52,251 nt of DNA from a virus (lineage: Duplodnaviria; Caudoviricetes). The position numbers and the translations under genes were made by a program. A model generated the notes under the pieces. It was not told the origin of the DNA and did no database searches. It was given only the letters and a program-made list of their open reading frames with translations. This document shows, one piece after another, positions 4,294 to 40,981 of the stretch. Each line of letters begins with the position of its first letter. Position 1 is the stretch's first letter. The stretch spans positions 1 to 52,251 of IMG/VR virus record IMGVR_UViG_3300033148_006861. One strand, written 5' to 3'.

Positions 4294-4569
4294 CTATACA
4301 GTTTTACCTAATAAAGTTGTTATCAAATAGCGATGGGCATAATCCGGGTCTAATTCCTCAATCTTGGCCCGCCATATCCACCACTCCTCAAGATGAATAG
4401 GCGTCAAACCAGTCAGCTTCTTATTGAGTATATTTTCACTGATATGCACCCGCTCCGCAAACTCCGATTGCTTGCCAATAACCCCTCTCGATACCATCAT
4501 TTTGATAGCGTTGCTCAATAAATGTGCAATGGCCATATTCATTCGGTCACCTCGAATGTAAGTTTCCAT
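4294..4569 (-). CDS. Putative HTH regulator (CII/Cro-like)
   Basis: QSEFAERVHISENILNKKLTG HTH-like segment; GGAGG precedes METYIRG. Confidence 0.55.
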   Translation of the reverse strand: METYIRGDRMNMAIAHLLSNAIKMMVSRGVIGKQSEFAERVHISENILNKKLTGLTPIHLEEWWIWRAKIEELDPDYAHRYLITTLLGKTV

Positions 4570-4699
4570 ATCGTTGCCCTCCATTTGTTGCAGTACTTTT
4601 ATCAATTTTAGTTGCCCGATTACCAAAATTGATTTTTAATTTCCTTGCATTTCTTTAAATTATTTTGTATTTTTTTATACAAAAGTATAATACCCCCCA

Positions 4700-7750: not shown

Positions 7751-8479
7751 ATGAAATTAAATGCCAAACATTTTTCAGATCAATTAGATAAAATTTTAGA
7801 TGAAGATGGGTTGAGTCCAGAAAAACTGGCTTTACAATGTAATATTTCACATCCCACACTTTATCGGATTTTAAATAATAAAACTAAAGGTGTTCAAAGA
7901 AATATAGCCCGCAAGATCGCCGAGGGCACTGGCAGGAAGTTCAAGATCGAGGGTGACAAGATTTATTATTACAAACCGCCAAAATCGGAAAAAGACCTTG
8001 AATCATGGCGAGACATTGAACTGTATCAACCTATAACACCGCTTAGTGAGTTTGATCAGTATATCAAGGACTTAGGACTCCCGCCGCATCTGGCACAACC
8101 TTTGATGTACATCCCTTTGTTCAAATACCCGCCAAAATCTTTAGACAATTGGGATGCCACAGTTCAATCTTTACAAATAGGAGTGATTACTACGGTGTTT
8201 CAAGAGGGGAAAGATCGTCTTTTCGCACTACGAGTTAAAGACAATACAATGGCCGACCTAATAAAAAAAGATGCCATTGTAACCGCTGACCCACACAGCC
8301 CAATAGAAGATAATAAATTTGCAGTGGTTTCATTTCCAGATAATTCGTATATTATTAGAAAATATTATAAGCAGAACAATCAAATCTTGCTCATTTCGCA
8401 AACTAATCCCCCAGAATGTTTTTTTAAAAATCAATTTGAAACGATTTATCGTTTAATACAGGTTATTCAGCTTTTGTAA
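7751..8479 (+). CDS. cI: CI-like repressor (XRE HTH + S24 peptidase-like domain)
   Basis: N-terminal HTH (LSPEKLALQCNISHPTLYRIL); C-terminal FALRVKDNTM...YIIRKY S24-like domain. Confidence 0.85.
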   Translation: MKLNAKHFSDQLDKILDEDGLSPEKLALQCNISHPTLYRILNNKTKGVQRNIARKIAEGTGRKFKIEGDKIYYYKPPKSEKDLESWRDIELYQPITPLSEFDQYIKDLGLPPHLAQPLMYIPLFKYPPKSLDNWDATVQSLQIGVITTVFQEGKDRLFALRVKDNTMADLIKKDAIVTADPHSPIEDNKFAVVSFPDNSYIIRKYYKQNNQILLISQTNPPECFFKNQFETIYRLIQVIQLL

Positions 8480-8489
8480 GGATTAGAAA

Positions 8490-8768
8490 ATGCAAATATC
8501 CCAAATCGAAAAATTAGAATCTGTATTCGGCAAAGAACAAGCCTATGCTTTAGCAGATATCTTAGATGTGACATTAAGGCATGAACTTGATTTAAGAGAA
8601 TTGGCAACAAAACATGACCTAAAAGAAATCGAAAGCAAAATAAAAGAATCGGAAACATCGCTCAAAAGAGATATTAAAGAACTGGAACTTAGACTCAAAA
8701 TCTGGCTCATTACCGCTTTTATTTTGATCAGCGCATTCTTTAAGGCGCTGGATTATTTTGTGAAATAA
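8490..8768 (+). CDS. DUF1640-like coiled-coil protein with C-terminal TM helix
   Basis: ELATKHDLKE...DIKELELRL followed by a hydrophobic tail. Confidence 0.7.
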   Translation: MQISQIEKLESVFGKEQAYALADILDVTLRHELDLRELATKHDLKEIESKIKESETSLKRDIKELELRLKIWLITAFILISAFFKALDYFVK

Positions 8769-8790
8769 TATTCAAAAATTGGAGGTAATA

Positions 8791-8930
8791 ATGCCTACCG
8801 AACATTACATAATTCTCACTGTTATTTTTCAAGAAGAAGATGATGGCATCTGGACCGCAAGATGTAATGAATATTGATGTCACATGATCTTCCTGCAATA
8901 TCAGGCAAGAAACTAATAAAACTCCTATAA
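8791..8930 (+). pseudogene. Truncated hicB- and hicA-like remnants
   Basis: MPTEHYIILTVIFQEEDDGIWTARCNEY* (8791-8877) coupled by TGATG to MSHDLPAISGKKLIKLL* (8877-8930). Confidence 0.6.
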
Positions 8931-8948
8931 AAAGAGATAAAATTGCGC

Positions 8949-8977
8949 TTGACAGTTATTTTAAAATTTGTTATACT
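8949..8977 (+). promoter_or_regulatory. Strong sigma70-type promoter
   Basis: TTGACA-N17-TATACT with extended -10 TG. Confidence 0.8.
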
Positions 8978-9017
8978 ATAACAAAATGCTGATTCAAAAA
9001 ATGAAGGGTAACAAAAA

Positions 9018-9263
9018 ATGTCAAAACTTTTAGAAAAAGAATTCCGATTTTTTGTTGACCACCAAGATGAACTTGTCGAAAAATACAACGGGAAAGTACT
9101 TGTAATAAAAAATGAAAAAGTTATCGGAACATACGACTCTGAATTGGATGCTTTGATTGAAACAAGAAAAAAATATAAAGAAGGTACTTTTCTCATTCAA
9201 AAATGTGAAGCAGGTTCTGATGTTTACACCGCAACATTTCATTCGAGAGTAGCTTTTGCATAA
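9018..9263 (+). CDS. DUF5678-like small protein
   Basis: FFVDHQDELVEKYNGKVLVIKNEKVIGTYDS...TFLIQKC pattern. Confidence 0.7.
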   Translation: MSKLLEKEFRFFVDHQDELVEKYNGKVLVIKNEKVIGTYDSELDALIETRKKYKEGTFLIQKCEAGSDVYTATFHSRVAFA

Positions 9264-9306
9264 ATAATGTTGGGCAAATATATAAATAAAGGAGGGAAAC
9301 ATTATT

Positions 9307-9639
9307 ATGGAAAAAGAATTAAAAATTAAATTTCATATACCCGATAATCATAAACTCCACTTTGTTACCAGTGTTTGGGGAGGAGTTAATGCAAAAGGAA
9401 TGGTAGAAATAAATTTTTTACATGATCGGCCTCCATTACCTAAATCATCTGTTGATGTTGTCGATGAATTAGGTAATCTCATAAAAAGTAAAATTGACAC
9501 ATCTGGTTATGAGCTTGTAAGAATAGTACAAACTGGAGTAGTTATGGATATAGATTCTGCAAAAAATTTACTAAATTGGTTAAAAGAAAAAATAGATGCT
9601 TGGGAACTAAGGAATAAGGGAGCGGAAGATGTACACTGA
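9307..9639 (+). CDS. Cassette ORF1, DUF3467-like protein
   Basis: VTSVWGGVNAKG.VEINF.HDR...MDIDSAKNLLNWL pattern; GGAGG RBS. Confidence 0.6.
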   Translation: MEKELKIKFHIPDNHKLHFVTSVWGGVNAKGMVEINFLHDRPPLPKSSVDVVDELGNLIKSKIDTSGYELVRIVQTGVVMDIDSAKNLLNWLKEKIDAWELRNKGAEDVH

Positions 9640-10066
9640 TCTTGATTATAATACTTCAACAGGAATTTGGGTTAGCTTTGGCTTTTTTGCAGGCATTTCA
9701 TATACGACGAATCAATTTAGAGAAAGTAAAAACACTTTTTCTTATTCTGTGCCCAAACATGTGAGTGTATATGATAAAGTTTTTGATATTGAGGAATTGC
9801 CTATAAATGAAATTAGAAATGATAATACTATATTAATTTTAAATTGGCCAATTACTCTTAAAATGGAAAATAATGAAGAAGTTTTCATAGTATCTAATGA
9901 TGATTTAAATCTTCACGGTATTGGATTTTCAAAAGAAGACGCTTTGTCAGATTTCAATTCTTCATTTATCCATTTTTGGAATTATTATATGGAAATTGAT
10001 GAAAATAAAATAATTGGTTATGCAAAAAGATTAAAAGCATTATTTACGAATATAGTAAAGGAGTAA
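9629..10066 (+). CDS. Cassette ORF2, HicB-like antitoxin fold
   Basis: VSNDDLNLHGIGFSKEDALSDF...WNYY HicB-like core. Confidence 0.55.
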   Translation: MYTDLDYNTSTGIWVSFGFFAGISYTTNQFRESKNTFSYSVPKHVSVYDKVFDIEELPINEIRNDNTILILNWPITLKMENNEEVFIVSNDDLNLHGIGFSKEDALSDFNSSFIHFWNYYMEIDENKIIGYAKRLKALFTNIVKE

Positions 10067-10070
10067 TTAA

Positions 10071-10361
10071 ATGCAGATTCCAAAAAAAGAGATTGAAAGA
10101 AGTCTCTTAAAAAAGGGATTTGTAAAAGAGCATGGTGATCATAATTATTTTTATCACGAATATGAGGGAAAACGAACTGGTGCTTATGCTAAAACATCAT
10201 ATGGTTCAAAGTACAAAGATTATGGTATCAACCTAATTAAATTTTTAAAAAAGCAATTAAAATTGGATCAAAATGATCAAGCAATTAAGTTATTAAAATG
10301 TCCTATGAATAAGCAAGACTATGAAACAATTTTACAGAAAAAGGGAATCATTCCCAAATAA
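10071..10361 (+). CDS. Cassette ORF3, HicA-like toxin
   Basis: IERSLLKKGF...GDHNYFY...SYG...KKQLKL...CPM. Confidence 0.65.
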   Translation: MQIPKKEIERSLLKKGFVKEHGDHNYFYHEYEGKRTGAYAKTSYGSKYKDYGINLIKFLKKQLKLDQNDQAIKLLKCPMNKQDYETILQKKGIIPK

Positions 10362-10369
10362 AGTAATGG

Positions 10370-10445
10370 GTCCAACAAGGCGCTGCACCTGATGACCGCT
10401 ATTCCGCTGACGCACCATAGCGGCAAGTGAGCTTAGTTGTTATGA
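10370..10445 (+). repeat. attC recombination site (76 bp)
   Basis: R'' GTCCAAC, 5-bp spacer, L'' GCT(G)CAC with extrahelical base, inner stem CCGCTAT/ATAGCGG, L' GTGAGC, 6-bp spacer, R' GTTATGA. Confidence 0.85.
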
Positions 10446-10591
10446 ATATACCAACGCTCAGTTTAACTATAGAATTTTCAAATCGAGTAAATGTAATATC
10501 CTCTGATGTTGAGATAGCGAAAGCTCAACAATTTGACCCTAATTTACCTCCTCCCCATCTTACTGCTGATCTAAAATATCTTTTATTTTAG
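10442..10591 (+). pseudogene. Truncated N-terminus of a retropepsin-like aspartyl protease (usual DUF5678 partner)
   Basis: MNIPTLSLTIEFSNRVNVISSDVEIAKAQQFDPNLPPPH... ends before any DTGA motif. Confidence 0.45.
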
Positions 10592-10619
10592 TGCCAAAAC
10601 GATAATAGAGATAATAATA

Positions 10620-11690
10620 ATGGCTCACATCCAAAAAATCAGACTCAAAAAAGGCACTGCTTATCGGATTTATTATTACAAAGACAGCATTCCCCGCCAA
10701 AAATATATCTCATATAAACAAAAGAAAAATCTAAAAGACATAAAAAAATTTGCTAATCAATTAGAGGCAAACGAACTTTCTGAACCATTCTCAAAAACAA
10801 TCACTCTTAAAGACTTCAAAAAAGTCTATTCCGAAAATCGAAAACATGAAAAAGATATAAGCAGAAATATTTATGCTCTAAATCTTCTAATATCCTTCCT
10901 TGATGAAGCTCTCAGATTAGACAAAATTAATCATGTTGCAATTCACCGCTTCCGTGATTATTTACTTGAGAAAAGATTAACGCAAGTTCCGCCTGCTCAA
11001 TTAACCTATCAGCGGGAGCAAAAGATTAGACGCGGGGTCAATAAAGAGCTTGCAAACCTCAGAACAATTTTTCGATGGGCAAAGAAAAAAGATTATATAT
11101 CTACCGATGTTTTTGAGAAGGTAGATTTTCTTGAAGCTGCTCAGCCCTTGCCAAATGTTTTATCAAGTGAACAAGAAAAATTATTTTACAAGGCATTGCC
11201 GAAATTTTCAACAAGCCGTTCAAGCAGGTACTCGGGCTATCGGCTGGCTTGGCTGATAATGAGGTTTACAGGATTGAGGCGAAAAGAATGTATGACTTTA
11301 AAGTGGGAGAATATAGATTTTAATGGCGAGTTAATTTTTCTTGAACGTACTAAAAATGGTGATGAAGTTTTTATACCATTGCATCCAAAGCTAAAGAGGA
11401 TATTGAAATTTTTAAATAGAGAAGGAAAATATAGCGGCAGGGTCATTCCTTATGGAAAAGACTATTTAACGAATGGATTTCGGCGTGCATTGAATCGGGC
11501 AGGATTAAGCCATTTAAAAAGCCCCGTACATATTCTCCGGCATACTTACATTACAAAAATAGTAAAGCAGTCGAAAAATATCTACCTGGCACAAAAGGCA
11601 GCCCGCCATAAGAATGTTCAAACAACAAAAATCTACGAGCATGTTGCTTTGGCGGAACTAAAAAAAGATTTGGAAAATGTCAATTTTTAA
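10620..11690 (+). CDS. int: Phage tyrosine integrase
   Basis: TGLRRKE, RTKNG, HILRH, ARHKNVQTTKIY catalytic R-K-H-R-H-Y set. Confidence 0.95.
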   Translation: MAHIQKIRLKKGTAYRIYYYKDSIPRQKYISYKQKKNLKDIKKFANQLEANELSEPFSKTITLKDFKKVYSENRKHEKDISRNIYALNLLISFLDEALRLDKINHVAIHRFRDYLLEKRLTQVPPAQLTYQREQKIRRGVNKELANLRTIFRWAKKKDYISTDVFEKVDFLEAAQPLPNVLSSEQEKLFYKALPKFSTSRSSRYSGYRLAWLIMRFTGLRRKECMTLKWENIDFNGELIFLERTKNGDEVFIPLHPKLKRILKFLNREGKYSGRVIPYGKDYLTNGFRRALNRAGLSHLKSPVHILRHTYITKIVKQSKNIYLAQKAARHKNVQTTKIYEHVALAELKKDLENVNF

Positions 11691-39400: not shown

Positions 39401-40981
39401 AGTATGATTAAAATACGCTAATGCAGCTTTAAGGTGTGTTTTATCGGCGGGATAACGGAAATTAGTATTATGTGCGATAAAACCATTAGCAACAAAATTA
39501 TGCGAACCCTCAACCATTATATCATAAACAGGTTCAGGCGACAATTGTTTGATATCTCGAACTCTTGAAACTGTAAAAATTTGTTCGTTTTCAAGAAATA
39601 TGTCGCGTCCACCAAATACTTTACCCTGAGGCCGATAATTTGAATAAAGTACAATTTGATAAGCAAACGATTCCGTCCCAAAATTCTTTGTTGGTTTGCG
39701 CTCATAAATGTTGCTGCTCCACCATCCAGCATATTTGGCAAGAACCTTAACATCCTCCAATAATTGCTTATTGCATGAAACAATATAATGTTGCCCATTT
39801 TGAGGTGTATGCCCATCGGCATCTATATAGCCTTTTAAAAATTCGGATATTGCATCTTCTGATAATTGGAAAATCCATTTAGGTATTCTTCTATTATGTT
39901 GATTGCCAGCGCAACAAAGTTTTACTAATTTCCGTGCAATGTCAACAGAATGAAGCCTAACTTCATAGCATTTGTTAGGCGGCTGATGGTGAGGATAGAT
40001 TTTAATTCTTTCAGCATAATCAGGATAGGCTTCACCAAGAATTGCTTTATATTTTTCAGCTTCCTCTTTACCAGAGCAAGCAAGTCTTAAACTATGTGCC
40101 CCATATTTGTTATACTCTAAATACCCATCGCCATAATAAAAACCCAAAGATCTCATCTCTGCTAAAGAATGGCCGTTATTATTTTCGTTAGGTAATTTTT
40201 TAACAATAAGAAGAAGATCGCCCTTACAGATATGATCAAGTCGCGTCCATTCTAATCTGCGCCCCAAAGGTTTATCTCGCTTTAGAGTTAATATCGGATG
40301 TTCAGCAGTGCCCTTGATTTTATCATGGCCCGTCGAAATTTCATAAATCGGGAAAACGCCAACTTCTTTCCATCCAAGTACTTTTCTCTTTTTTAATTGG
40401 CCGACGAATCTCTGTTTTTCGTATTTTCTTTTGCCACCCCACCTTTCTTCCCCAATAGATAGAAAAGGTTGGAATCCGCCTTCAAAAGAATAAACGAAAT
40501 TATCTTCCTTAATTTCAGCAATAGGCACAGGTCCTTCTGGATTGGTATAAATTAAAGTATCGCCTGTTACACAGGCATCTAAGAAATCATCTTCAGCAAC
40601 ATCTTTGTACTGCGAAGGCTTTGTAACATGCCCGCCCTCTTTTATGCCTATGCCATATTTCTTAGCTCTTGCCTCCTGAGCTTCTTTTGCTTTTTCTCTT
40701 TCGCTCTTTTCTTCTATCAACTCGTTATCTTCGTTTTCGCTCAGCGGTTCTAAGTGATTTTGATAGTCATCCATAACTATTTCCTCTTGTTTTTTGATGA
40801 CCCATTTATTCCCTACTTTTTTGTATTTTGCTTTAACTGCTCCCCAGCCTGCCATGCGTGCCTTTTCATCGTTTTTGCTTTTTGCATATTCTGCATTAAA
40901 AGCCTTGATAAAAAGCTTTTGCGCGCCTGCCGGCAGGTTCTTTAAATAAGTCGGGATATTGTTCGGGTATTGGTAAGGCAG
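36425..40981 (-). CDS. Head polyprotein: ChaB + DUF6582-like (intein-interrupted) + prohead protease + scaffold + major capsid protein; probable CTG start
   Basis: ORF extends 42 codons beyond the track start to CTG after AAGGAG, giving (M)PYQYPNNIPTYLKNLPAGAQKLFIKAFN..AGWGAVK (ChaB); NGNRY, THRP, GVSLRA, GADF protease motifs; coiled coil; capsid C-terminus (YYVYVPF); no other capsid gene. Confidence 0.85.
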   Translation of the reverse strand: MPYQYPNNIPTYLKNLPAGAQKLFIKAFNAEYAKSKNDEKARMAGWGAVKAKYKKVGNKWVIKKQEEIVMDDYQNHLEPLSENEDNELIEEKSEREKAKEAQEARAKKYGIGIKEGGHVTKPSQYKDVAEDDFLDACVTGDTLIYTNPEGPVPIAEIKEDNFVYSFEGGFQPFLSIGEERWGGKRKYEKQRFVGQLKKRKVLGWKEVGVFPIYEISTGHDKIKGTAEHPILTLKRDKPLGRRLEWTRLDHICKGDLLLIVKKLPNENNNGHSLAEMRSLGFYYGDGYLEYNKYGAHSLRLACSGKEEAEKYKAILGEAYPDYAERIKIYPHHQPPNKCYEVRLHSVDIARKLVKLCCAGNQHNRRIPKWIFQLSEDAISEFLKGYIDADGHTPQNGQHYIVSCNKQLLEDVKVLAKYAGWWSSNIYERKPTKNFGTESFAYQIVLYSNYRPQGKVFGGRDIFLENEQIFTVSRVRDIKQLSPEPVYDIMVEGSHNFVANGFIAHNTNFRYPADKTHLKAALAYFNHTENKTKGGYTDEEWAKMGKRLASKLGDEYMYDPDTKQVVKKKKQKKEEIEGGLDEYRNKVNQAVKAHFGKEYDVIDIVKEYVILNKWNEEEMNSIYFRASFKETDTGFEFGPLEQVEIKQVVKKKTEEQKQLDPEKFLIEEKIETSDKVESGHVFSLSGKILLEENQDKDNGLVVKAKVPMIKFNTFTENGNRYLDECWTWLEEDLKRLKESKSSRKVLDMFPTHRPALDPKHPDYFRQRAGKITGVSSSDGIGYIHFETLKTSAGQDMAVLLLEEMVDGVSLRAFPKNGYYEANNMGGDDVRRLTLLGADFTDVGSMPFSDEEKGFHLEEKKEDNIMEEKEKKELEELKAQKAKLEAEQKALEEEKKKLEEAQKQAAYEARKKMLIEHVTEKVNELEGLGDLVKANILSESKEAVDVIMAENENDEVAKLKIEEFIKGKAESRKKEIAESLQESMKAQKEFVTNPNVISTLKTEERAKGILQEETGGSHKVRDIILSRIFKRPVYDNGRFLLEEWDERLRPLLKLQKLYMQFTGRTGGDLLSPGGQLYETLITEEVQKNFRPLLEANEATTSTVIGSNLPTEVAAAIIYGAWPQTIAMNIAVTGDMLSTTKDIFEIGYPTGDNVFRRGQHEFGWVDEANPATLVTTTANPTTYGDFVDEGALSPSSNEYPQPLFARLIEVPAGTDMVITITGKDENGDTATWTVTFYTTDAAGTIKRCTPTNVGQKCTDVTGVSVADSSTLTAGQVGFFVEKPITGATAGSAEDKSYLGIVKSQATAQDYDLGARVDISTIEDMQLAMRDKGSGLDYLTLLVQTIIKSIVDTIDKKILYEIVDDATGGDQTFVQSTPDEGYTQAEWNKKFLYYSDLVVDETALAGNFEPDWMVWSRADRSRFMEWLGEGWTKYNVNRNELHLSSRSVGNVSGCEVFVSPNARRSRVAVGTRSTGIHYYVYVPFVILGPQWVPDTKTKAIMVHHRAALKITQPLTLGKLSIS
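39467..40573 (-). mobile_element. Intein (369 aa) with LAGLIDADG homing endonuclease
   Basis: N-terminus CVTGDTLI, block B TAEHPIL, LGFYYGDG and LKGYIDADG, C-terminus VYDIMVEGSHNFVANGFIAHN|T. Confidence 0.95.

What the first reader, a model, noticed from the sequence alone, without database searches (positions are those of the whole stretch)
9269..10591. Complete integron cassette inside a phage with no integron integrase
Seen: a canonical attC at 10370-10445 (R'', L'' with extrahelical base, L', R', 5- and 6-bp spacers) and a matching left boundary G^TTGGGC at 9269. Excising the cassette restores TAAATAATG^TTATG, rejoining the DUF5678-like gene to what looks like the start of its usual aspartyl-protease partner. 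Established: IntI can insert cassettes at secondary GWT sites. The phage integrase shows no IntI-type insertion. Inference: a host integron dropped a three-gene HicAB-like cassette into the prophage, downstream of a strong promoter (8949-8977), so the phage now transports an integron cassette.
Basis: partly seen in the sequence, partly recalled or inferred. Interest (0 to 1): 0.78.

Follow-up and report, generated by a model that had tools for sequence, protein, structure and literature searches.

The report
Lone integron cassette inside a phage
A temperate phage genome carries one complete integron gene cassette (three small genes plus its recombination site), placed exactly between two phage genes that are normally adjacent, so a phage without any integron integrase is carrying integron cargo.

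Summary
A covariance model built only from 12 genuine class-1 attC sites gives one full-length hit in the 52-kb window, at exactly 10370-10445 (22.6 bits, E 0.0013; next best 13 bits). GTTGGGC occurs once in the window, at 9269, and is 6/7 complementary to the attC R'' box, as in real arrays.

The same attC type occurs in multi-cassette arrays (L107-L112) and piles up as a multi-copy repeat in two metagenomes. The closest relative of the three-gene unit (L016) has the same left boundary and a related attC.

In 7 of 8 related viral loci the DUF5678 gene is followed directly by a retropepsin-like/SEC-C gene. Here 1170 bp lie between them. A near-identical relative probably lacks the cassette: DUF5678 80/81 identical and a full protease, each on a 2450-nt contig. 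Its DNA could not be fetched.

The phage has no IntI. Two cassette proteins form a HicAB-like pair.

IntI-catalysed insertion at a secondary GTT site is the best explanation but is inferred. Verdict: real, a new member of a known kind.

The parts
8949..8977 (+). sigma-70-type promoter-like site upstream of the DUF5678 gene and the cassette
   Evidence: TTGACA, 17 nt, TATACT: 11 of 12 positions, with TG before the second hexamer. This is a consensus match only; function was not tested.
9018..9263 (+). DUF5678-like phage gene (81 aa), the left neighbour of the insertion
   Evidence: Pfam PF18929, E 8.9e-4, below the cut-off. 230 relatives at E<=1e-10, several of them carrying PF18929. 8 related viral loci.
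9269..9275 (+). left junction G|TTGGGC; the inferred crossover lies between 9269 and 9270
   Evidence: Only copy of this heptamer in the window. With G10439 it is 6/7 complementary to R''. The same heptamer stands at the same place before the homologous unit in L016.
9270..10439 (+). the gene cassette (1170 bp): three ORFs plus attC up to the crossover G
   Evidence: Absent between the DUF5678 and protease genes in 7 of 8 related loci. The boundaries are set.
9307..9639 (+). p110, function unknown (weak DUF3467 lead only)
   Evidence: Relatives in 2 of 80 metagenome loci, L016 at 72% and L017 at 64%. Pfam, NCBIfam and PHROGs give nothing above threshold. The protein atlas gives leads only.
9629..10066 (+). 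p145, candidate antitoxin with a HicB/PHD_like-type C-terminal domain
   Evidence: It stands directly upstream of the p96 homologue in 77 of 80 loci. Similarity signals are all weak: Pfam PF12910 E 0.0074, PDB 3k6q by profile E 0.071 and by Foldseek prob 0.82 at rank 31. The complex model supports binding to p96: score 0.85, best of 3 controls 0.01.
10071..10361 (+). p96, HicA-like candidate toxin
   Evidence: The model has an alpha-beta-beta-beta-alpha core. Among 48,161 chains the best structural match is 1whz_A (Z 5.8, rmsd 2.4, 64 aligned). Chains of HicAB or toxin-antitoxin complexes follow: 5yrz_D (Z 3.5), 6g26_E (Z 3.4) and 6hpb_C (Z 2.7). Pfam HicA_toxin scores only E 0.043, 14.3 bits against a cut-off of 27.
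10370..10445 (+). attC recombination site: R'' 10370-76, L'' 10382-88, L' 10427-32, R' 10439-45. The bottom (minus) strand is the folding strand.
   Evidence: Model R1: 22.6 bits, E 0.0013, the only full-length hit. Bottom-strand hairpin of -16.3 kcal/mol in the excised form, reached by 2 of 300 shuffles. The same boxes occur in array attCs of L107-L112. It is a multi-copy family in two metagenome runs.
10442..10591 (+). stub of the retropepsin-like/SEC-C partner gene. Codons 1-45 (10442-10576) are native; four unrelated codons and a stop follow.
   Evidence: 45/45 residues identical to the N-terminus of P0012, a 187-aa protein with PF13975 and PF02810. Residues 46-187 are found nowhere in the window.
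10620..11690 (+). phage tyrosine integrase, not an integron integrase
   Evidence: PF00589 E 1.4e-19. phrog_1 E 7.7e-45. TIGR02249 scores 41.8 and 31.8 bits against a cut-off of 265, over the C-terminal 60 residues only.

Best explanation
The stretch 9270-10439 is one bona fide integron gene cassette: three ORFs followed by a 76-nt attC. It sits in the lysogeny region of a complete temperate phage genome, between the DUF5678 gene and its usual retropepsin-like partner.

Most likely mechanism. While the phage DNA was in a host carrying an integron of this attC family, the host's IntI recombined the folded bottom strand of a free circular cassette with a secondary GTT site. That site lay in the 8-nt spacer before the protease start codon. 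Replication then resolved the junction.

What the insertion leaves. The left junction is the target's G followed by the cassette's TTGGGC. The right junction is the cassette's complete attC, ending in G, followed by the target's TT. The left side has no full recombination site, so the cassette is probably trapped there.

Consequences. The cassette is co-oriented with, and downstream of, a near-consensus promoter. It is therefore probably co-transcribed with the DUF5678 gene. Its cargo includes a HicAB-like toxin-antitoxin pair.

Shown: the attC, the boundaries, the broken gene order, the absence of IntI, and the existence of the attC family and of a cassette relative elsewhere.
Inferred: catalysis by IntI, the secondary-site route, expression, and toxin-antitoxin activity.
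For: 1. Independent attC model. R1 was trained only on plasmid class-1 attCs. It gives a single full-length hit at 10370-10445, 22.6 bits, E 0.0013. This lies inside the 17.7-47.6-bit range of 28 attCs in arrays L107-L112. In 451 kb of 88 other loci, the only hit is the attC of the homologous cassette in L016.

2. Shared boxes. The L'' and L' boxes (GCTGCAC/GTGAGC) are identical to those of the estX attC and close to those of cmlA.

3. Cassette logic. The cassette start is 6/7 complementary to its own R''; the in-situ R' is 3/7. In 22 array cassettes the same measures average 6.27 and 4.82.

4. Left boundary. GTTGGGC is unique in the window. It is conserved at the left edge of the L016 unit, whose upstream flank differs.

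5. Multi-copy attC family. 57 contigs in run X1 and 25 in run X2 match only 10393-10444. Word depth there is 7678 and 307, against about 2 for the phage flanks. Their flanks diverge around the crossover.

6. Gene order. 7 of 8 related loci have the two genes adjacent.

7. Probable cassette-free relative. P0013 (80/81 identical) and P0012 (a full protease whose first 45 residues are identical) each lie on one 2450-nt contig. No second p96 at 90% identity or more exists in the database.

8. No IntI in the complete record.

9. The target GTTAT fits the published secondary-site consensus GWTMW / GNT (PMC4618277, passages read).
Against: - No IntI-bearing integron with this cassette or this attC family was found. 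The five array-bearing records had no IntI, and the genome collection could not be searched.
- The empty site was not read as DNA. That P0012 and P0013 share one contig rests only on equal contig length.
- The related phages with adjacent genes are distant (55-68% identity).
- The base bulged from L'' is G on the top strand, as in the estX and cmlA attCs, not the C seen in aadA-type attCs.
- The TTATGA after the crossover resembles common cassette starts in this attC family (TTATGC and similar). The right flank therefore looks cassette-like by itself. Only its identity to the protease N-terminus shows that it is phage DNA.
- The window is a metagenome assembly, and the attC is a high-copy repeat there. 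No read or contig that I could see bridges either junction.
- E-values from the short calibration are rough.
Confidence: 0.75

Rival explanations
1. The cassette and its attC are genuine, but IntI did not put them into the phage. Instead, illegitimate or short-homology recombination brought them in, either from a cassette array or from another phage that carries such an array, as ordinary phage mosaicism.
For: Viral-labelled contigs with multi-cassette arrays of the same attC type and no IntI exist (L107-L112), so donors without an integrase are available. The same region shows a second, non-integron rearrangement: the protease is cut after codon 45. Qi et al. 2023 propose such routes for arrays in phages (PMC9892861, section 3.4 read).
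Against: Exactly one cassette is present. Both ends lie at the G|TT crossover to the base. No remnant of a neighbouring attC or cassette is present. Random breakpoints would rarely do this on both sides.
Confidence: 0.14
2. Assembly artefact: the metagenome assembler spliced a cassette from an abundant bacterial array into the phage contig at the high-copy attC repeat.
For: The attC region is covered thousands of times more deeply than the phage flanks in run X1. No contig seen there bridges the junctions. The record is a metagenome assembly.
Against: A chimera needs a shared repeat at both joins. The left join has only a 7-nt motif that is unique in the window, and the contig returns to phage sequence 2 nt after the attC. 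The record closes on itself with terminal repeats.
Confidence: 0.06
3. The GC-rich hairpin is not an attC but a terminator, a repetitive extragenic palindrome or part of the phage attP. The three genes are then an ordinary moron.
For: It lies 175 nt upstream of the integrase gene, where attP sites often lie. Rfam has no match for it. With flanks included, the minimum-energy fold is not a single hairpin.
Against: The model of genuine attCs matches end to end with all pairs standard. The same model finds same-strand arrays with 250-700-nt spacing among its sequence relatives. R''/R' cassette complementarity holds. No tRNA or tmRNA was found. There is no T-run after the stem.
Confidence: 0.05

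Closest known systems
Gene cassettes inserted by IntI at secondary sites (GWTMW / GNT) outside integrons, known from plasmids
   Same: A single cassette with a complete attC on its 3' side and only G|TT on its 5' side. It lies outside any attI or array, is trapped there, and is expressed from a foreign promoter. The review PMC4618277 (passages read) states that IntI1 recognises attI1, attC and secondary sites and that cassettes can move to secondary sites. The classic plasmid examples, an aadB cassette in an RSF1010 derivative and dfrA14 inside strA, are recalled from memory and were not checked here.
   Different: The recipient is a phage genome, not a plasmid. The cargo is a three-gene unit with a toxin-antitoxin-like pair, not a resistance gene. 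The attC belongs to an environmental family (sediment and vent metagenomes).
Integrons and clusters of attC sites without integrase (CALINs) in phage genomes (Qi et al. 2023, PMC9892861; abstract and results sections read)
   Same: Phage-borne attC sites and cassettes without a phage-encoded IntI. That study found 17 CALINs, 3 complete integrons and one integrase without cassettes in 10,705 phage genomes. It showed that 5 of 6 tested phage attCs recombine with attI1.
   Different: Every CALIN there has at least two attC sites. Here there is one attC, with base-precise junctions in a conserved gene pair and a probable cassette-free relative. I could not see their supplementary tables of genetic contexts, so a similar single-cassette case there cannot be excluded.
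attC sites of the estX and cmlA cassettes of class 1 integrons
   Same: The same box architecture. The L''/L' boxes are identical to estX (GCTGCAC/GTGAGC), the R''-side spacer is 5 nt, and a G is bulged on the top strand.
   Different: The variable stem-loop is unrelated, and the cargo and habitat differ.
HicAB type II toxin-antitoxin systems
   Same: A two-gene unit with the small toxin downstream. p96 has the alpha-beta3-alpha core, and its best structural matches are HicA-type chains. The partner is predicted to bind it. The pair is conserved in 77 of 80 loci.
   Different: Neither protein reaches its Pfam cut-off. p96 carries about 35 extra C-terminal residues. p145 has a long, poorly predicted N-terminus and no recognisable DNA-binding domain. 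A third gene, p110, precedes the pair only in this cassette lineage.

Membership tests
integron gene cassette / attC site | R'' box RYYYAAC and R' box GTTRRRY at the two ends | tested here: met
   R'' is GTCCAAC (10370-76). The R' of the excised form (G10439 plus 9270-75) is GTTGGGC. The in-situ R' keeps only GTT, as expected after insertion into a foreign site.
integron gene cassette / attC site | L''/L' boxes that pair with an extrahelical base, and unpaired spacers of about 5 and 6 nt | tested here: met
   GCT-G-CAC pairs with GTGAGC. The spacers are 5 nt (10377-81) and 6 nt (10433-38). All 11 modelled pairs are standard in the model alignment.
integron gene cassette / attC site | Match to a covariance model of known attC sites (the test that IntegronFinder applies) | tested here: met
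   This was my own model of 12 class-1 attCs, not IntegronFinder's. It scores 22.6 bits, E 0.0013, the only full-length hit in the window. The same model scores 28 array attCs at 17.7-47.6 bits.
integron gene cassette / attC site | The bottom strand folds into one imperfect hairpin, more stable than the top strand | tested here: met
   Excised form: bottom -16.3, top -13.0 kcal/mol; 2 of 300 shuffles fold as well. In situ: -12.8 against -9.6.
integron gene cassette / attC site | The first bases of the cassette are complementary to the R'' of its own attC | tested here: met
   6 of 7 here. In 22 array cassettes the mean is 6.27 (12 are 7/7, 5 are 6/7).
integron gene cassette / attC site | The same cassette, or the same attC type, found in cassette arrays next to an IntI gene | tested here: inconclusive
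   The attC type is found in arrays L107-L112, but no IntI is present in 5 of 5 of those records searched. The homologous cassette in L016 has the same left boundary and an attC (26.6 bits). That 4.8-kb contig holds no IntI, and its putative second attC scores only 8.9 bits.
integron gene cassette / attC site | Recombination by an integron integrase | not testable with these tools
   This needs an attC x attI assay.
complete integron | An intI gene with the IntI-specific additional domain, next to attI and a cassette promoter | tested here: not met
   The whole record has one tyrosine recombinase. It scores 31.8-41.8 bits against the TIGR02249 cut-off of 265.
CALIN (cluster of attC sites lacking an integrase) | At least two attC sites in a row | tested here: not met
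   There is one hit at E<=0.01. The next best is 13 bits and lacks the L boxes.
HicA toxin (PF07927) | Pfam match above the gathering score; HicA fold | tested here: inconclusive
   Pfam gives 14.3 bits against a cut-off of 27. The best structural matches are HicA-type chains, but only at Z 5.8 to 2.7. Foldseek finds nothing at E<=0.001.
type II toxin-antitoxin pair | Conserved adjacent two-gene unit whose products bind each other | tested here: met
   The genes are adjacent in 77 of 80 loci. The complex model scores 0.85, best of 3 controls 0.01. That mark was reached by 58 of 80 solved complexes and 2 of 110 mismatched pairs. The runs agree in 100% of contacts, and the partner's pLDDT is at least 86. 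Binding is modelled, not measured; toxicity was not tested.

The most novel reading that the evidence does not exclude
The intact attC makes the whole circular phage genome a substrate for a host integron integrase. On infection of an integron-bearing host, attC x attI (or attC x attC) recombination could dock the entire phage into the cassette array, a route to lysogeny that does not need the phage's own integrase. Alternatively it could hand the toxin-antitoxin cassette on to a naive integron. The phage would then be an active shuttle between integrons of sediment bacteria, not just a dead end for one trapped cassette.
Probability: 0.12. Interest if true: 0.75.

Novelty: new member of a known kind. 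Interest (0 to 1): 0.5.

Why it matters
Integron cassettes are thought to travel mainly on plasmids and transposons. Phage carriage was reported only in 2023, and only for clusters of at least two attC sites.

This case is a clean natural example of the smallest unit: one cassette, base-precise junctions, an identifiable target site inside a conserved phage gene pair, and a probable cassette-free sibling. It suggests three things.
- Integron integrases act on phage DNA inside the cell.
- Surveys that discard single attC hits may miss such events.
- Temperate phages can move environmental cassettes, here a toxin-antitoxin-like module placed behind a strong lysogeny-region promoter, between hosts.

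It does not open a new class of system.

Tried and rejected
Searches that found nothing or only chance matches
- Rfam holds no match to the element, and ARAGORN finds no tRNA.
- An exact 18-mer of the attC in viral contigs gave 6 loci, all chance matches in coding sequence.
- blastn of the attC against the 80 metagenome loci gave only 11-nt chance matches.
- No close relatives in viral contigs for the integrase, the cI-like repressor, p110, or P0012 above 48% over most of its length. A near-identical empty-site phage could therefore not be read.
- p110, p145 and p96 have no relatives in arrays L107-L112.
- p96 is nearly absent from annotated collections: 1 of 72,556 plasmids, and 2 phage records of one archaeal virus.
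- NCBIfam and PHROGs name none of the cassette proteins. The atlas gives only leads for p110.

Weak or negative structural and family tests
- With 10-nt flanks the fold is not one hairpin. The isolated element does fold as one.
- The putative second attC of L016 (near 4534-4590) is not supported by the model: 8.9 bits with an odd alignment.
- Foldseek against the PDB gave nothing at E<=0.001 for p96 or p145. PDB sequence profiles gave nothing below E 0.07.
- The short ORF at 8791-8874, which looked HicB-like to me, has no Pfam match.

Sequencing runs
- X1 and X2 hold only small shares of the stretch. No contig covering or bridging either junction was listed.

Literature limits
- Supplementary tables of PMC9892861 (contexts of the 17 phage CALINs) could not be seen.
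- Two full-text searches listed no paper, by title or abstract, on a single cassette at a secondary site in a phage. This is not an exhaustive claim.
Full report
WHAT THE WINDOW IS. The window is a complete IMG/VR virus record of 52,251 bp with direct terminal repeats. Most genes lie on the minus strand. The stretch 7751-11690 is a plus-strand lysogeny module with three landmarks:
- a cI-like repressor (HTH plus Peptidase_S24);
- a DUF5678-like gene at 9018-9263;
- a tyrosine integrase at 10620-11690 (PF00589 E 1.4e-19; phrog_1 E 7.7e-45).

THE OBSERVATION. The sequence at 10370-10445 reads as follows.

| Part | Sequence or length | Coordinates |
|---|---|---|
| R'' | GTCCAAC | 10370-10376 |
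| spacer | 5 nt | 10377-10381 |
| L'' | GCTGCAC | 10382-10388 |
| variable stem-loop | 38 nt | 10389-10426 |
| L' | GTGAGC | 10427-10432 |
| spacer | 6 nt | 10433-10438 |
| R' | GTTATGA | 10439-10445 |

Rfam has no family that matches it, so I built an independent test.

From plasmid R100 and nine further plasmid records found through its intI1 region, I collected twelve different genuine attC sites. They belong to the aadA1, aadA2, HAD-family hydrolase, qacL, cmlA5, estX, aac(6')-Ib-cr, dfrA27, dfrA14, dfrA12, dfrA15 and arr-3 cassettes. I aligned their bottom strands and built covariance model R1 with only the R-box and L-box pairs as structure. Neither the window nor any of its relatives was in the training set.

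With filters off, R1 gives one full-length match in the window on both strands. It covers 10370-10445 on the minus strand, scores 22.6 bits at E 0.0013, and all 11 modelled pairs are standard. The next matches score 13 bits or less and skip the L boxes.

The estX attC has the same L''/L' boxes, and the cmlA attC has nearly the same. The G bulged on the top strand is therefore a known attC variant.

Folded alone, the bottom strand forms one imperfect hairpin. The excised-circle form gives -16.3 kcal/mol, reached by 2 of 300 shuffles, against -13.0 for the top strand.

THE LEFT BOUNDARY AND CASSETTE LOGIC. GTTGGGC occurs once in the window, at 9269-9275, six bases after the DUF5678 stop codon; shuffles give a mean of 3.8. 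G10439 plus 9270-9275 is 6/7 complementary to R'', whereas the in-situ R' is 3/7.

I checked that this measure means something. In 22 cassettes of real arrays of the same attC type, the cassette start matches its own R'' at 6.27 of 7 on average (12 are perfect, 5 are 6/7). The in-situ pair averages 4.82. The window behaves as a cassette whose downstream neighbour is foreign to it.

THE attC FAMILY AND THE CASSETTE ELSEWHERE. Laying the contigs of two public runs on 8800-11000 gave an unexpected result. The runs are a marine sediment metagenome (X1) and a hydrothermal vent metagenome (X2).
- 57 contigs in X1 and 25 in X2 pile on 10393-10444 only.
- Word depth there is 7678 and 307, against about 2 for the phage flanks.
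- Likeness is mostly 80-95%.
- Their flanks diverge at 10433-10444, which is at the crossover.
- The upstream loose-end consensus shows R'' as GCCCAAC or GCCTAAC, the same spacer, and L'' as GCTCCAC.

A degenerate 20-mer from these boxes found six new viral-labelled loci, L107-L112. In them R1 finds 36 matches at E<=1. At E<=0.05 it finds 28, all on one strand within each locus, with spacings mostly of about 240-700 nt: 10 in L107, 7 in L109, 6 in L111, 2 each in L112 and L108, and 1 in L110. Scores run from 17.7 to 47.6 bits. Several share both arms with the window's site. This validates the model and places the window's attC in a family that forms cassette arrays. None of the five records searched holds an IntI.

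The three-gene unit itself is rare. Among 80 metagenome loci found with the p96 family, p110 occurs in two. The closest is L016 (p110 72%, p145 42%, p96 67% identity). It has the following features:
- the same GTTGGGC directly before the unit, with a different upstream flank;
- a related attC after it, which is the only R1 hit in 451 kb of 88 loci (26.6 bits);
- an R'' of GCCCAAA, one step from the perfect complement of GTTGGGC;
- an R' end that is not canonical, followed by an IS110-family transposase gene.

Members of the IS1111/IS110 group are known to target one end of attC sites (PMC11187229, passages read). L017, the second relative, has a plain terminator instead of an attC.

THE TARGET SITE. 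In 7 of 8 related viral loci (5 distinct sequences; DUF5678 55-68% identical), the DUF5678 gene is followed within 0-25 nt by a 186-207-aa protein with aspartyl-protease and SEC-C domains. The exception is L008.

In the window the ORF that starts at 10442, two bases after the crossover, is that gene's start.
- A profile comparison gave E 0.0011.
- A database search then found P0012, a 187-aa protein with PF13975 and PF02810. Its first 45 residues are identical to the stub.
- P0012 lies on one metagenome contig of 2450 nt.
- A DUF5678 protein 80/81 identical to the window's (P0013) also lies on one contig of 2450 nt.
- The database holds no second p96 at 90% identity or more.

The simplest reading is a sibling phage with the two genes adjacent and no cassette. 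I could not fetch its DNA, so the empty site is inferred and was not read.

Removing 9270-10439 would leave the stop codon, eight bases containing GTTAT, and the ATG. GTTAT fits the published secondary-site consensus GWTMW / GNT (PMC4618277, passages read).

1. The protease is a stub. After codon 45 (10576) it runs into four unrelated codons and a stop. Residues 46-187 are nowhere in the phage. A second, unrelated rearrangement joins it to the integrase module.
2. The phenomenon is not new in kind. Qi et al. 2023 (PMC9892861; abstract, results overview and sections 3.1 and 3.4 read) report 3 complete integrons, one integrase without cassettes and 17 CALINs in 10,705 phage genomes. They also show that 5 of 6 tested phage attCs recombine with attI1. 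Their CALINs have at least two attC sites. The window has one, so it is neither an integron nor a CALIN.

THE CARGO.
- p145 and p96 are a conserved two-gene unit, adjacent in 77 of 80 loci.
- The p96 model (pLDDT 76) has an alpha-beta3-alpha core.
- Among 48,161 chains the best match to p96 is 1whz_A (Z 5.8, rmsd 2.4, 64 aligned). I recall 1whz as a HicA homologue; its title does not say so.
- Chains of HicAB or toxin-antitoxin complexes follow: 5yrz_D at Z 3.5, 6g26_E at Z 3.4 and 6hpb_C at Z 2.7. These Z values are low by the tool's own caution.
- p145 has a confidently modelled C-terminal domain. It has weak links to the PHD_like antitoxin family and to PDB entry 3k6q.
- A complex model supports binding of p145 (residues 50-145) to p96. 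The score is 0.85 and the best of 3 controls is 0.01. That mark was reached by 58 of 80 solved complexes and 2 of 110 mismatched pairs. The runs agree in 100% of contacts, and the partner's pLDDT is at least 86. My own alignments were used, so these counts hold only roughly.
- p110 remains unknown.
- The unit lies downstream of a promoter-like site that matches 11 of 12 consensus positions.

MECHANISM AND RIVALS. The junctions are what IntI-mediated recombination between a circular cassette's attC and a GTT secondary site would leave. This is my best explanation (0.75), but it is inferred: no IntI, host or donor array was identified. The rivals are:
- acquisition of a genuine cassette by non-IntI recombination (0.14). 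The base-precise ends on both sides argue against it;
- an assembly chimera at the high-copy attC (0.06). There is no repeat at the left join, and the contig returns at once to phage sequence;
- a non-attC hairpin (0.05). The model, the arrays and the complementarity test argue against it.

VERDICT. This is a real and well-delimited solitary integron cassette in a phage that has no integron integrase. It is a new member of a known kind and of moderate interest.

Noticed in passing
window 10577-10620: The retropepsin-like/SEC-C gene breaks off after codon 45, 43 nt before the integrase start. The rest of the protein (residues 46-187 of P0012) is absent from the whole phage. So the integrase module replaced or deleted it in a second rearrangement that is independent of the cassette.
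   Followed up: partly
L107-L112 (viral-labelled contigs): Multi-cassette arrays of the same attC type: 10, 2, 7, 1, 6 and 2 attC hits at E<=0.05. There is no IntI in the five records searched. One record (behind L109) is 93.8 kb and rated complete. Near the L109 array lie an RRXRR/HNH protein and a peptidase fragment. Whether these contigs are truly viral was not established.
   Followed up: partly
window 10393-10444, runs X1 and X2: The attC core is a very high-copy repeat in a marine sediment run and a hydrothermal vent run. Word depth is 7678 and 307, against about 2 for the phage flanks. This points to large arrays in abundant bacteria of such habitats. Both runs also hold short contigs identical to phage sequence at 8800-9039.
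   Followed up: partly
L016 1386-3260: An IS110-family transposase gene (454 aa, minus strand) follows the non-canonical R' end of the homologous cassette's attC, as IS1111-type elements that target attC sites do. After it come GTTATGT and a 417-aa ORF. Downstream of that ORF's stop lies ACATAAC, the exact complement of GTTATGT. The model does not support a second attC there.
   Followed up: partly
L016 109-180: Three direct copies of a TTTTCCTT(T)AT(A)T motif lie just upstream of the cassette boundary. This resembles the integrase-binding repeats of an attI site. The contig ends 110 nt further left, so no integrase gene can be seen.
   Followed up: no
window 8779-8935: A 32-codon ORF and a following short frame looked to me like decayed N-termini of a HicB-like and a HicA-like protein. 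This is an impression from memory. Pfam finds nothing in the first, and the second is too short to test.
   Followed up: partly
window 39955-39980: A 26-nt palindrome, GCCTAAC...GTTAGGC, is the second-best model hit (13 bits, E 0.37). It has R-box-like ends but no L boxes and is probably chance.
   Followed up: no
L017 1165-1230: The second relative of the three-gene unit, from a GC-richer organism, ends in a plain rho-independent terminator, not an attC. The gene trio therefore also exists outside cassettes.
   Followed up: no
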